Part shown: one piece after another, positions 3,001-6,000 of the stretch
How positions within the stretch are numbered: the first letter of the stretch is position 1
Layout: each line of letters begins with the position of its first letter
Origin: Escherichia coli O157:H7
GTDB lineage: Bacteria; Pseudomonadota; Gammaproteobacteria; Enterobacterales; Enterobacteriaceae
Reading direction: 5' to 3' (one strand)
Assembly (NCBI RefSeq): GCF_013167455.1
Contig: NZ_CP038330.1
DNA length: 64,000 nt
Made by a program: the position numbers

Positions 3001-6000
3001 CCGTGCAGTCTTCCCATATCTTCTGTCACAGGCATGAGCCTCAAGCTGGTTGTACTTGGATCTGTTTGCACTTTCCTCCCGGCGCTCACCAGTGATGAAA
3101 AGGATCTTCTTCCCCTTGAAGCGCTCCTGGTTATTAAGAGCTCTGCGGCCAACATCGATCTTCAAGGCTGATGAGCACCACCTTGTTTGGAGTGATGGCG
3201 ATTGCTGAGGGAAACGAAGGCGCGTACCAGGCTTAGAGCGCTTATGGTCTCTAGGCAGCACCAGAAGCCCCTCAGGCGTCTCTACACGATGGGGGTGGCT
3301 ATAGGCATTGTCTTTGAGCATTTCGCCCTCAAAGCCGCCCTCAAGCCACGAGAAGTACATTGGGATACCCAGTTCTTCCCCGAGCTGACGACAGTAATCA
3401 CGCATGAAGGCCCAATCCATCAACGAACTGCCTTCCTGACCATCAACATCATGGTGCCAGAACTCCACCTTTGACTTATCAACACCCATGTCCACCAGCC
3501 GCAAGTACGCAGCAATCGAGTCTTTGCCTCCAGACAGGCAAACAATGATGTGATCGTACAAACTCAGGTCCACATCCGGAGCGGAGAAGTACGTTGTTCT
3601 ATCGTCACAACGCTGACTGGAAGATATGCCGGTAAGAACCGACTCCAGTGATGGCAACACCACCTGGTCATCGAACAAATCTCCTTGGTTTTCTCGTCTC
3701 AACATAAGTCGCTCTTTTTTCTTTACTGGGTTGTTTTTATGATTTACAGTATTATAAAATGATACTGTGAAAAGTAAAGTTTTCAGAACGACTAATCACT
3801 CAGGAGAACTTGATAAGCACCAGAAAGCAATCTAAAGGTGGTTTTTCGGTGAGGTTAGTTCAGGGGCAACCTGCCGCTGCTGATTGGAAATCATCAAGAA
3901 GTGGCTTTTTGGTGGGGTTACGGTTTGAAGGGGTGAGTATGTGGGAACGTTGCACGGTTAAAGGGGGCCGCACATGAAAACGATAAAGCGGTTCATCGTA
4001 TGGGTGAATTACGGTCTTGAGGGTTGGAGCATTTTCGGATCGAGCGATGACTGGGATGAAGCGGTATCCATCCGTTCGGAAGCGATAGACGAATGCAATA
4101 TTGACGAGGAAGACATCATCTTGGCAGAAAACAAAAACGAGCTGGTGGTAAAACCTGCGGCCAAGCAAATGACGGAGTGGCACCGGGAACTGGAAGCCGT
4201 CCTTATGACCTTGGATGACTGCCAGATGGAATGTGACGGTATGACATGGGCAGTAAGCCACCTACTCAATGAAGCGGGTGTACCTCATGACTGCATGTAT
4301 GGCTTTGTGCGAAACGAACAGACCAAGGACATCGTGACACCGCATTTCTGGGTTGTCCTGGATGATGGGTGGCTGGTGGATCTGAGGCTACGCATGTGGC
4401 TGGGCGATCACGACAACATTCCTCACGGGGTATTCCATCCCGATAACGAGCCAGGACTTTTCTACAAGGGAGACCCGGTTCAAAACCATAAAGGGATGAG
4501 ACTGGGCAAAGCCGTCCTGGACATCATGACCGACGGAAAACTTTCACATGTGAAAGTTCCTGAACGACAAGACGGAGAGTAATAGCGTGGAATTTGATTA
4601 CGACAAGTCAGTATCAAACGCACATCTTGAGGCCGCAGGCTGGGGTATGGATGCCTTTAACCACTCCAACCCATTTGAGAGTCATGTCATCTATGTGCGT
4701 GACTACCGCAACGATCACATCCGCCTGTTCACCATCAAGCAGGCTGACTTCGACACGATAAAGCTGCCGCTTCACCTTACCTCCGACATGCTGGCTTCGG
4801 TGATCGCTGAGTTCGTATCGAAGGCAGCAAAAGGGAAGTTGAATACGAAGGAGTCCGACACGCTGGCTCCTGCCTTGGTTGGCTATGCCAAATCAACAGA
4901 AACCTACCGGAGCTGGCGGAGAGTTTCTGGAGCAACAGAGCGATTGCATATGGTCATCAATATCTATGCGGGTTCTGAATTGCTGAGACCTTTCATCGCT
5001 CGGGCTCCTGAGACCGTCCTGACGACCCAAGAGCTACTGGTCTTCTCATCACAGGTTAAGAGCATGGATGTATCCAATCATCCAGAGTGGTTTAGGGGCC
5101 GGAGGTAGTCATGAAGCCAGTTCTCTGGATATTCGTCCTGATCATCGCCCCTTTCGTCATTGCGAAAGTGGACCAATGGCGCAAACGCGGCATTGGAGAC
5201 ACCTGGGCGTGGTGGAAATCAGAGAACATGCCTTATGAGCTGCGCTCGGCCACTCTGTTTTTGTCCGAACAGGACATATCAACCACACAGCCGGTGCCCA
5301 TGCACGGCAGGGTTGATCAGGTGTACCAAACCAAGAATGGGGTTCTCATTCCCTTGGACACCAAGCTGCGCCAGGTAAACCACATCTATGAGTCGGACAT
5401 TATCCAGCTCTCGGTTTACCGGGTAATTCTGTCACACAAGTACAAGGCACCCGTTGCCAAGTACGGCTATGTCCGAACCGTTGTTGAGACAGCGGACGGG
5501 GATAGAGTCCGTTACATCAAGACAAACCTTCTCAGCGAAAAAGAAGTGGTCAAGCTGTGGCACCGCTATCAATCCATCCGTTCTGGTCAGGTAAAAACCT
5601 CCTGTTCCTGTGGCGGAAAGTTTCACATGTGAAAGTTCTGGATTGAATCAGGGTTGCCCGAATTGGGCAGCTAGGCGGGGTTGCATTTTTGAAAAGTCCT
5701 GTACGCTGGTTGGTATAGGAGGTGAATAGTGGCCCAGCTTAAACATAACCGCTTCGTCATGTTGGGGTCCTTGGTAGCGACGGTCGTAGCTGCCGCCAAT
5801 GGCTTGAGTTTTCTCACCCTTATGGCTGGTGGAATGACCCTTCTCCAGTTCATGGCTTGGAAGCAACAAGATGCTGTCCGGAGCCGGTTTAAAGCTGCGA
5901 AGGATGCGTTTGAAGCGTTGAACGTCATTGCGTTCGACAAGCACTGGGTAGGTTCAACCGCGACGGTCGCCAAAGTGTCGAACATGATCACTCCGCCCGA

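What the first reader, a model, noticed from the sequence alone, without database searches (positions are those of the whole stretch)
3938..3957. Solitary iteron 17 bp upstream of the 3974 operon, 2 kb from the origin array
A single copy of the oriV iteron class (TATGTGGGAACGTTGCACGG) lies just before the start codon of the 3974 gene. RepA binding here could couple expression of the 3974-5632 cluster to initiator level or handcuff it to the origin.
Basis: partly seen in the sequence, partly recalled or inferred. Interest (0 to 1): 0.5.

Follow-up and report, generated by a model that had tools for sequence, protein, structure and literature searches.

The report
Conserved distal RepA iteron, IncC plasmid
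A lone, perfectly conserved copy of the replication initiator's binding site lies 2 kb from the origin of the drug-resistance IncC plasmid; relatives with different binding-site sequences have matching distal copies, so it is probably a replication-control element, not a switch for the neighbouring genes.

Summary
Window 3939-3957 (+) is a full 19-bp iteron, 17 nt before the 3974 ATG and 1,957 bp beyond the 14-copy oriV array (1223-1982) of an IncC plasmid (repA = 1-1101).

It scores as high as array members (30 bits), and chance expectation is about 1e-4.

It is not the only outlier. An inverted iteron lies at 3001-3019 inside the PAPS-reductase-family gene. A third lies outside the window, between stbA and mobI.

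The distal iteron is 19/19 identical in IncC types, IncA, Photorhabdus, Shewanella and Edwardsiella plasmids. Their orthologous array iterons differ by 0.6-3 positions each, and the upstream 100 nt is only 61-76% identical.

Halomonadaceae plasmids, with RepA 52-57% identical and a different iteron type, carry 2-3 distal iterons of their own type at about the same 1.9-2.0 kb. Their intervening and downstream genes are unrelated.

So the site belongs to the replicon, not to the 3974 operon. The most likely role is an auxiliary control iteron that loops to, or handcuffs, the origin. Repression of the 3974 cluster is possible but unsupported, because no promoter overlaps the site.

RepA binding is inferred, not shown. 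I class it as a new member of a known kind.

The parts
3939..3957 (+). Same orientation as the origin array.
   Evidence: PWM 30.1 bits. 19/19 identical in IncC type 1, IncA, Photorhabdus, Shewanella and Edwardsiella plasmids.
1223..1982 (+). oriV iteron array: 14 direct 19-bp iterons, the last three in tandem at 23-bp spacing (1918, 1941, 1964).
   Evidence: Literature: 11-14 19-bp iterons in IncA/IncC (PMC7433901).
3001..3019 (-). Second outlying iteron, inverted (ATATGGGAAGACTGCACGG on the - strand). It lies in frame inside the PAPS-reductase-family gene, over codons YGKTAR.
   Evidence: 26.2 bits. Zero or one change in IncA, Photorhabdus and Shewanella. The pAsa4 homologue encodes SGRTAR and is not an iteron there. 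The Edwardsiella plasmid has 2-3 inverted iterons in the equivalent zone.
1..1101 (+). repA, the IncA/C replication initiator and presumed binder of all these sites.
   Evidence: 100% matches annotated as replication initiator in PLSDB IncC plasmids. Equals vcrx003 of pVCR94. No Pfam, NCBIfam or PDB sequence match.
1983..2137 (.). AT-rich unwinding region of oriV following the array (20-35% G+C), with the palindrome AGATCTAAAGATCT. The DnaA boxes lie inside the array, at 1629-1637 (+), 1888-1896 (-) and 1898-1906 (-).
   Evidence: The TTAACC-rich sequence after the array is shared with the Halomonadaceae origins.
2138..3705 (-). The two genes lying between the origin and the distal iteron: a small membrane ORF (vcrx006, 2138-2593) and a PAPS-reductase/DndC/BrxP-like protein (vcrx007, 2590-3705).
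   Evidence: In the Halomonadaceae plasmids a RadC-family gene and a second ORF that I read as ArdC-like occupy this slot. The PAPS-reductase gene is deleted in the Edwardsiella plasmid and IS-disrupted in pE1-tetA.
3706..3973 (.). Divergent intergenic region carrying the distal iteron. It contains an AT-rich core with a strong - strand promoter (TTTACT-16-TATAAT, 3778-3751) and weak + strand candidates (3722-3780). It also holds the 13-mer AAAGCAATCTAAA (3824-3836) and T-tract motifs GGTGGTTTTTCGG (3837-3849) and AGTGGCTTTTTGG (3900-3912).
   Evidence: IncA vs IncC: 41 differences in 268 nt, none in 3938-3965.
3974..5632 (+). Downstream three-gene cluster (vcrx009, vcrx010, vcrx011). The third gene is a weak Cas4-like PD-(D/E)XK nuclease. 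These genes are neighbours of the iteron; they are not shown to be controlled by it.
   Evidence: Nearly silent in pVCR94 RNA-seq. vcrx011 is interrupted by an IS91-family element in many Salmonella plasmids.

Best explanation
The 19-bp site at 3939-3957 is a real RepA-binding iteron that belongs to the IncA/C-type replicon, not to the adjacent operon. It is an auxiliary, distal iteron placed about 1.95 kb beyond the origin array.

Proposed mechanism (inferred). A RepA monomer occupies the site. Through RepA-RepA contacts it pairs with RepA on the origin iterons of the same molecule (a DNA loop enclosing vcrx006-007) or of a sister copy (handcuffing). This adds negative, concentration-dependent control of initiation. 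Known parallels are the incA iterons of P1, the incC iterons of F, the flanking single iterons of RK2 and the distant single iterons of R6K.

Because it is a single, non-redundant site, it is held at one high-affinity sequence. Steric hindrance of transcription into vcrx009-011 may be a side effect.

What is shown: the site's sequence class, its strong purifying selection, its co-variation with Rep specificity, and its independence from the identity of neighbouring genes.

What is inferred: RepA occupancy, looping or handcuffing, and any effect on copy number.
For: 1. It matches the array PWM as well as array members do, and only two such hits exist outside the array in 64 kb.

2. It is 19/19 identical in IncC type 1, IncA, Photorhabdus khanii, Shewanella profunda and Edwardsiella anguillarum plasmids. 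Their 14 orthologous array iterons differ by a mean of 0.6-3.0 positions each. The 100 nt upstream are 61-76% identical in IncA, Photorhabdus and Edwardsiella. IncA vs IncC shows 41 differences in the 268-nt spacer and none in 3938-3965.

3. Co-variation. Halomonadaceae plasmids (RepA 52-57% identical) use the iteron type AGGTGGGrATGTTGCACAG. They carry 2-3 distal iterons of that same type 1.93-1.95 kb beyond their array. Those sites score 27.7-33 bits on their own PWM and 11-14 bits on the IncC PWM; the IncC distal site scores 30 and 19 respectively.

4. In those plasmids the genes inside the interval (a RadC-family gene and an ORF I read as ArdC-like) and after it (a coiled-coil protein I read as KfrA-like) are unrelated to vcrx006-011. 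The feature therefore tracks the replicon.

5. The origin end is homologous in both groups: three 23-bp tandem iterons followed by TTAACC-rich AT-rich DNA.

6. In PLSDB the 48-nt iteron region occurs in 1,062 records and repA-oriV in 1,055. Neighbouring genes can be IS-disrupted.

7. Relatives with greatly expanded arrays (18-33 iterons) lack an intact distal iteron. This fits a redundant control-iteron role.
Against: - RepA binding, looping and copy-number effects are untested here, and I found no experiment on this site in the accessible literature.
- One extra site beside 14 in the array adds little titration, so any control would have to come from looping geometry rather than numbers.
- Natural variants with altered spacing exist and are evidently viable: Edwardsiella 1.3 kb, pE1-tetA +3.3 kb, pBAA-803-A 3.3 kb.
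- The pAsa4 group and two Halomonas plasmids do without an intact distal iteron.
- The Edwardsiella plasmid keeps the distal iteron despite 19 array iterons, so the inverse relation with array size is weak.
- RepA could not be assigned to the winged-helix Rep family by sequence, and the structure model was unusable. The monomer/dimer paradigm is therefore borrowed, not demonstrated.
Confidence: 0.5

Rival explanations
1. Operator or roadblock. RepA bound at 3939-3957 represses, or otherwise tunes, transcription or translation initiation of vcrx009-011. By analogy, the other outliers would tune vcrx007-006 and mobI-vcrx002-repA. RepA would then double as a transcription factor linking initiator level to backbone operons.
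For: - The site ends 17 nt from the ATG and abuts the Shine-Dalgarno-like sequence.
- All three IncA/C outliers, and the inverted iterons of the Edwardsiella plasmid, lie upstream of a gene start and are co-oriented with it.
- Two of them sit in divergent-promoter intergenic regions.
- vcrx007 and vcrx009-011 are almost silent in RNA-seq under all three conditions, and AcaCD does not switch them on.
- In the Halomonadaceae plasmids the distal iterons also lie upstream of a gene with its own promoter.
Against: - No promoter-like hexamers overlap the site; the best candidates are about 180-210 nt upstream.
- The distance to the start codon is not conserved: about 120 nt in the Edwardsiella plasmid, where the 5' end of the gene is replaced.
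- The downstream gene is unrelated in the Halomonadaceae plasmids, where the iterons lie upstream of the promoter rather than over it.
- The pAsa4 group keeps the homologous operon and spacer but has no cognate iteron there; its own PWM scores -9.4, which is within background.
- A single monomer site would make a weak roadblock.
Confidence: 0.2
2. R6K-like secondary initiation site. The distal iteron, next to the AT-rich stretch at 3706-3790, marks an alternative replication start activated by looping to the origin array, which would act as an enhancer as the gamma iterons do for ori-alpha and ori-beta.
For: - A single distant iteron in direct orientation lies near a 25-27% G+C segment at 3701-3800.
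- A similar 1.9-2.0 kb spacing is seen in two deeply diverged lineages.
- R6K precedent: Miron, Mukherjee and Bastia 1992, listed in the references of PMC4980987. The details are from my own knowledge.
Against: - There are no DnaA boxes near the distal site; they cluster in the main origin only.
- The AT-rich stretch is explained by back-to-back promoters.
- In the Halomonadaceae plasmids the AT-rich DNA lies on the other side of the iterons and looks like a promoter.
Confidence: 0.08
3. Replication-fork barrier or module boundary. RepA bound at the distal and inverted iterons pauses or blocks the fork leaving oriV, enforcing direction or timing. Alternatively, the iterons simply mark the ancestral edge of the replicon module and serve as recombination anchors for swapping the two genes in between.
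For: - The slot between the origin and the distal iterons holds different two-gene cargo of nearly equal summed length (522 vs 520 aa) in the two lineages.
- An inverted iteron faces the origin in IncA/C.
Against: - No polar-barrier activity is known for this Rep.
- The Halomonadaceae plasmids lack the inverted copy.
- A mere recombination scar would not be held 19/19 identical at the positions that vary among array iterons.
Confidence: 0.07
4. A non-functional relic: a stray copy of an iteron left by an old rearrangement of the array.
For: - It is absent or decayed in some relatives: the pAsa4 group, Halomonas PA16-9 and THAF12.
- It is not known to be needed by minimal replicons.
Against: - There is perfect conservation amid 24-39% flank divergence.
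- There are zero changes where array iterons average 0.6-3. A rough Poisson estimate of the probability is 0.0015.
- Cognate distal iterons exist in a lineage with 52% RepA identity.
Confidence: 0.05

Closest known systems
Control iterons outside the minimal origin: incA of P1 and incC of F (my knowledge of the classical literature; handcuffing as described in PMC5397158 and PMC4857107, listed)
   Same: These are extra copies of the origin iteron, in the same plasmid, outside the segment needed for initiation. They bind the initiator and restrain replication by pairing with origin iterons, by looping in cis or handcuffing in trans.
   Different: In P1 and F they are clusters of 5-9 sites separated from the origin only by the rep gene. 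Here there is one site (2-3 in the Halomonadaceae plasmids) about 1.95 kb away, on the far side of the unwinding region, with two unrelated genes inside the interval. Function is not tested here.
Single flanking iterons of RK2 oriV, including an inverted one beyond the AT/GC-rich region
   Same: Solitary iterons flank a main cluster, one of them inverted on the other side of the unwinding element. They are dispensable for initiation but affect copy number.
   Different: The RK2 sites lie within a few hundred bp inside oriV. The IncC sites are 1.0 and 1.95 kb away, one inside a coding sequence and one at the 5' end of an operon.
R6K ori-alpha and ori-beta: distant single or half iterons activated by pi-mediated looping to the seven gamma iterons (Miron et al. 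1992, cited in PMC4980987; details from my own knowledge)
   Same: A lone iteron lies kilobases from the array on the same molecule. Initiator-mediated looping over 1-4 kb is an established mechanism.
   Different: In R6K the distant sites are replication starts. Here there is no DnaA box and no evidence of a second origin.
Rep autorepression operators (pSC101 IR-2, the F repE operator, pPS10): partial inverted iterons over the rep promoter bound by Rep dimers (general knowledge; PMC4980987 for Rep architecture)
   Same: An initiator binding site is used for transcription control.
   Different: Those operators are inverted half-iterons overlapping the rep promoter. The site here is one complete direct iteron, overlaps no promoter, and precedes a non-rep operon. 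The outlier more likely to serve autoregulation is the one upstream of mobI-repA, outside the window.
Vibrio cholerae RctB sites outside ori2 (39-mers, crtS) (PMC8565311 and PMC11711613, listed)
   Same: An initiator with several classes and locations of binding site, some far from the origin, that modulate initiation.
   Different: It has a different initiator family and different site types. crtS acts in trans from another chromosome. Here the distal site is an ordinary iteron in cis.

Membership tests
Iteron (initiator-binding repeat of an iteron-type theta replicon) | Sequence belongs to the same repeat class as the direct repeats at the origin | tested here: met
   30.1 bits on the PWM of the 14 array copies, whose own range is 21-31. 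It matches the conserved cores ATrTGGG and yTGCACG.
Iteron (initiator-binding repeat of an iteron-type theta replicon) | Changes together with the initiator's specificity in diverged relatives | tested here: met
   The Halomonadaceae distal sites match their own array PWM (27.7-33 bits) and not the IncC PWM (11-14 bits). The IncC site behaves the opposite way.
Iteron (initiator-binding repeat of an iteron-type theta replicon) | Bound specifically by the plasmid's Rep protein | not testable with these tools
   This needs EMSA, footprinting or ChIP. No published data on this site were found.
Auxiliary or control iterons (P1 incA, F incC, RK2 single iterons) | Located outside the region required for initiation | tested here: inconclusive
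   It lies 1.95 kb beyond the array and the AT-rich region. A minimal IncC replicon made of the 'rep region with oriV' exists (PMC10954446), and repA plus direct repeats is reported as sufficient in papers I could not read (Llanes 1996, Hancock 2017).
Auxiliary or control iterons (P1 incA, F incC, RK2 single iterons) | Lowers copy number or exerts incompatibility when present or added; copy-up when deleted | not testable with these tools
   The only indirect hint is that relatives with 18-33 array iterons lack an intact distal iteron.
   There is no -35/-10 pair at or next to 3939-3957. The best + strand candidates are at 3722-3780. The scan covers only the sigma-70 consensus.
   The pAsa4 group has the operon without a cognate iteron. 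The Halomonadaceae plasmids have distal iterons without the operon. The Edwardsiella plasmid keeps the iteron while the gene's 5' end is replaced.
R6K-type distant origin | Distal iteron adjoins its own unwinding element and host-factor sites and supports initiation | tested here: inconclusive
   An AT-rich 3701-3800 segment is present, but it is accounted for by promoters. There is no DnaA box within 3600-4300. Initiation itself is not testable.

The most novel reading that the evidence does not exclude
Replicons of the IncA/C RepA family may have a conserved bipartite architecture. An origin array and a distal iteron (or small cluster) would be held about 1.9-2.0 kb apart across initiators only 52% identical, with the looped-out interval acting as a swappable two-gene slot.

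In IncA/C, three outlying iterons sit at the stbA-mobI/oriT region, inside vcrx007, and before vcrx009. RepA would then organise a multi-loop structure. That structure would tie copy-number control to expression of the mobI-repA operon and of flanking accessory operons, so the replication initiator would act as a local genome organiser and transcription factor in the main clinical multidrug-resistance plasmid family.
Probability: 0.15. Interest if true: 0.65.

Novelty: new member of a known kind. Interest (0 to 1): 0.45.

Why it matters
IncC/IncA plasmids are among the main carriers of carbapenemase and cephalosporinase genes. Their replication control and incompatibility are still described only as 'repA plus 11-14 iterons'.

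Three conserved iterons outside oriV, one of them held invariant and mirrored in distant relatives, give concrete and cheaply testable targets. They bear on copy-number control, on IncA/IncC compatibility, on curing or incompatibility-based displacement strategies, and on possible cross-talk between replication and the oriT/mobI region.

If the sites have no effect, the replicon description simply gains three annotated RepA boxes.

Tried and rejected
1. 'Vestigial cognate iteron' in the Aeromonas pAsa4 group. By eye the aligned position shares a 9-mer (GGTTCATTG) with that group's own iterons. Its own-PWM score (-9.4) lies inside the background for random 150-nt windows (95th percentile about -5), so I rejected it.

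2. The two intergenic regions that carry outliers (vcrx007/009 and stbA/mobI) as duplicates of each other. The local alignment score of 28 is no better than shuffles (maximum 30). Only short motifs are shared.

3. A promoter over the iteron. None was found with the tool or with a laxer PWM scan.

4. A known RNA element in the 5' region. There was no Rfam match at E <= 1 apart from a chance viral hit elsewhere.

5. The small ORF annotated over the iteron in pVCR94 (vcrx008). Its frame is not conserved: 68 codons here, 15-35 in IncA, type 1 IncC and Photorhabdus. I take it to be spurious.

6. Assigning RepA to the winged-helix Rep family. There is no Pfam, NCBIfam or PDB sequence match. AlphaFold with an 11-sequence alignment gave pLDDT 49, so I ran no fold search.

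7. Extending the architecture to IncP-2 Pseudomonas megaplasmids (RepA 32% identical). They have a different layout (one iteron, an ORF, then the array), with no distal iteron within 6 kb.

8. Literature. Hancock 2017 could not be opened. Harmer and Hall 2015, Llanes 1996 and Ambrose 2018 are known to me only as cited references and were not read. Novelty is therefore judged on the accessible papers only.
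Full report
**What the window is**

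Bases 1-6600 are 100% identical to hundreds of IncC (IncA/C2) conjugative resistance plasmids. In PLSDB, 1,064 records match and 761 of them at 99% or better. The window opens at the ATG of repA (1-1101), which is vcrx003 of pVCR94; pVCR94 coordinate = window coordinate + 816. After repA come:

- the oriV iterons (1223-1982) and an AT-rich segment (1983-2137);
- two leftward genes: a small membrane ORF (2138-2593, vcrx006) and a PAPS-reductase/DndC/BrxP-like protein (2590-3705, vcrx007);
- a 268-bp divergent spacer (3706-3973);
- a rightward cluster at 3974-5632 (vcrx009-011), whose third gene is weakly Cas4-like.

**Check of the observation**

A position weight matrix built from the 14 array iterons scores 3939-3957 at 30 bits, inside the array's own range of 21-31. 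The matrix finds just one other hit in all 64 kb: an inverted copy at 3001-3019 (26 bits), lying in frame in vcrx007 over the codons YGKTAR.

I also scanned the part of sister plasmid pMS6198A that lies beyond the window's extent. This found a third outlier, CTATGGGAACGCTGCACGG (28.9 bits), in the stbA-mobI intergenic region. It is about 320 bp upstream of mobI, outside the mapped oriT, and 1.14 kb upstream of repA. Nothing else scored above 12 bits. So the site is real and far beyond chance, but it is one of three outliers rather than a unique one.

**Conservation**

The distal iteron is 19/19 identical in all five lineages checked:

- type 1 IncC (pMS6198A);
- IncA;
- a Photorhabdus khanii plasmid (RepA 97% identical);
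- a Shewanella profunda plasmid;
- an Edwardsiella anguillarum plasmid (RepA 92%).

Over the same comparisons, the 14 orthologous array iterons differ by means of 0.9, 2.0, 3.0 and 0.6 positions each. The 100 nt upstream are 93%, 75%, 76%, 100% and 61% identical. IncA and IncC differ at 41 of the 268 spacer positions, with a clean gap at 3938-3965.

A single site with no redundancy is thus frozen even at positions that are free to vary within the array. That is the signature of a site that must keep high affinity. The small ORF annotated across it in pVCR94 (vcrx008) is not conserved as a reading frame.

In PLSDB the 48-nt region occurs in 1,062 records and repA-oriV in 1,055. Flanking genes, in contrast, are found interrupted by IS elements.

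**The decisive comparison**

A search of one genome per species with a RepA alignment returned Halomonadaceae plasmids (Vreelandella, Modicisalibacter, Halomonas) whose RepA is 52-57% identical. Their origin is built the same way: an array ending in three 23-bp tandem iterons, then TTAACC-rich AT-rich DNA. The iteron, however, is different (AGGTGGGrATGTTGCACAG).

They carry two or three further iterons of their own type, in direct orientation, 1.93-1.95 kb beyond the last array iteron. The same distance is 1.972-1.975 kb in the IncA/C-type plasmids. Cross-scoring confirms the co-variation:

| Distal site | Score on own-lineage PWM | Score on the other lineage's PWM |
|---|---|---|
| Halomonadaceae | 27.7-33 bits | 11-14 bits (IncC PWM) |
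| IncC | 30 bits | 19 bits (Halomonadaceae PWM) |

The genes inside the interval there are a RadC-family gene and an ORF I read as ArdC-like. An ArdC-like annotation occurs at the same place in Halomonas PA16-9. The gene after the interval is a coiled-coil protein I read as KfrA-like, with its own promoter. None of these is related to vcrx006-011. The distal iteron therefore travels with the replicon and tracks the initiator's specificity, whatever genes lie next to it.

**Where the feature is missing**

- The Aeromonas pAsa4 group (RepA about 73% identical, iteron CGGTAGGTTTGCTGCACGr, 18-25 copies) keeps the vcrx006-011 homologues and the spacer but has no cognate iteron there.
- Halomonas PA16-9 (26 iterons) has only a degenerate copy.
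- Halomonas THAF12 (33 iterons) has none within 6 kb.
- Spacing is not inviolable: 1.3 kb in the Edwardsiella plasmid, which has lost the PAPS-reductase gene and has two or three inverted iterons upstream of its vcrx006 homologue; about 5.3 kb in pE1-tetA; and 3.3 kb in pBAA-803-A.

**Is it an operator for the 3974 cluster?**

Several observations favour this reading:

- The site ends 17 nt before the ATG, next to the ribosome-binding sequence.
- All outliers are co-oriented with a downstream gene.
- vcrx007 and vcrx009-011 are nearly silent in published pVCR94 RNA-seq in wild type, in the acaCD deletion and in the complemented strain. The next gene, vcrx012, has its own AcaCD box at window 5650-5678.

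Other observations weigh against it:

- No promoter-like hexamers overlap or adjoin the site. The credible promoters sit back to back in the AT-rich core at 3722-3780. RepA could at most act as a roadblock some 170-200 nt into a leader.
- The site-to-gene relationship is not kept in relatives.

I rate this reading possible but secondary.

**Is it a second origin, as in R6K?**

DnaA boxes occur only in the main origin, at 1629, 1888 and 1898. The neighbouring AT-rich DNA is accounted for by promoters. I rate this unlikely.

**Most likely mechanism**

I take the site to be an auxiliary control iteron. RepA bound at 3939-3957 pairs with RepA on the origin array, in cis by looping out vcrx006-007 or in trans by handcuffing, and so damps initiation. 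The inverted iteron and the stbA-mobI iterons may take part in the same structure, and the stbA-mobI site may also feed back on the mobI-vcrx002-repA operon. Two findings fit this model: the feature follows the replicon, and it tends to be absent where the array itself is greatly expanded.

The steps that remain inferred are RepA occupancy, pairing, and any effect on copy number. RepA could not be tied to the winged-helix Rep family by sequence, and the structure model was too poor to use. The monomer/dimer logic is therefore carried over from other systems.

**Comparison with known systems and novelty**

Extra iterons outside a minimal origin are classical: P1 incA, F incC, the RK2 single iterons and the R6K distant iterons. 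This makes the present site a new member of a known kind.

In the papers I could read, IncA/C replicons are described only as repA plus 11-14 iterons and one DnaA box (PMC7433901). No searchable paper mentions vcrx007-011 in its main text, and none that I could read mentions outlying iterons. Key subscription papers could not be read.

Two features go beyond the textbook cases. The site lies 2 kb away with cargo genes inside the interval. And the distance is similar in two lineages whose cargo differs. Both are recorded as unexplained rather than claimed as selected.

Noticed in passing
window 3001-3019 (-): A second outlying iteron, inverted, embedded in frame in the PAPS-reductase-family gene (codons YGKTAR). 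It is conserved in IncA, Photorhabdus and Shewanella. The 3' half (ACTGCACGG = TAR) is dictated by conserved amino acids, but the 5' half (ATATGGG) is specific to the IncA/C lineage.
   Followed up: partly
outside the window: pMS6198A NZ_CP015835.1 136410-136428 (L011 26511-26529); IncA L012 2688-2706; L013 8844; L014 8857: A third outlying iteron lies in the stbA-mobI intergenic region, about 130 bp beyond the mapped oriT and upstream of the mobI-vcrx002-repA operon. It is a candidate repA autoregulation site or replication-transfer coupling site. It is absent from the Edwardsiella and Aeromonas relatives.
   Followed up: partly
window 1964 to 3939; L019-L021 (array end to distal iterons): The spacing from the last origin iteron to the first distal iteron is 1.93-1.98 kb both in IncA/C-type plasmids and in Halomonadaceae plasmids. 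The two genes in between are unrelated but have nearly equal summed length (522 vs 520 aa). This may be coincidence or a constraint on loop size; it is unexplained.
   Followed up: partly
window 3824-3836, 3837-3849, 3900-3912; L011 26368-26400 and 26470-26495: The vcrx007/009 spacer and the stbA/mobI spacer share short motifs besides the iteron. One is the 13-mer AAAGCAATCTAAA, an inverted copy of the GATTGCTTTT repeats just upstream of stbA, which may be a ParR-type centromere or operator. The other is GGTGG(C/T)TTTT T-tract units roughly 11 bp apart just upstream of the iteron. The 13-mer and the T-tracts are also conserved in the Aeromonas relatives.
   Followed up: partly
window 3747-3769: An interrupted inverted repeat ACAGTAT-N9-ATACTGT overlaps the -10 of the strong leftward promoter of vcrx007 (TTTACT-16-TATAAT, 3778-3751). 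Its left half and centre are conserved in IncA and Aeromonas plasmids. It may be an operator for an unknown repressor, and vcrx007 is nearly silent in RNA-seq.
   Followed up: no
window 5650-5678: The published AcaCD-binding motif for vcrx012 (pVCR94 6466-6494, TSS 6529-6531) maps here. The 3974-5632 cluster is therefore a separate unit from the AcaCD-activated genes that follow. In the Edwardsiella plasmid a similar box (TGCCGGAATTGGGCCG) lies just after the distal iteron.
   Followed up: partly
window 5111-5632: The Cas4-like nuclease gene vcrx011 is interrupted by a 1.7-kb IS91-family element in many Salmonella IncC plasmids (for example NZ_CP009410.1). The gene is therefore dispensable.
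   Followed up: partly
window 1375-1401 and 2076-2093: A perfect 13-bp tandem AGTGGTTCCCGTA x2 lies between array iterons 2 and 3. A GATC-containing palindrome AGATCTAAAGATCT lies in the AT-rich unwinding region and is conserved in the Edwardsiella plasmid. Their roles are unknown.
   Followed up: no
L021 3725, L024 3734, L026 2398, L029 1709 and 1751: The Halomonadaceae plasmids carry cognate iteron-like sequences inside the 3' part of their parB gene, several kb upstream of rep. This is another case of outlying iterons in coding sequence.
   Followed up: no
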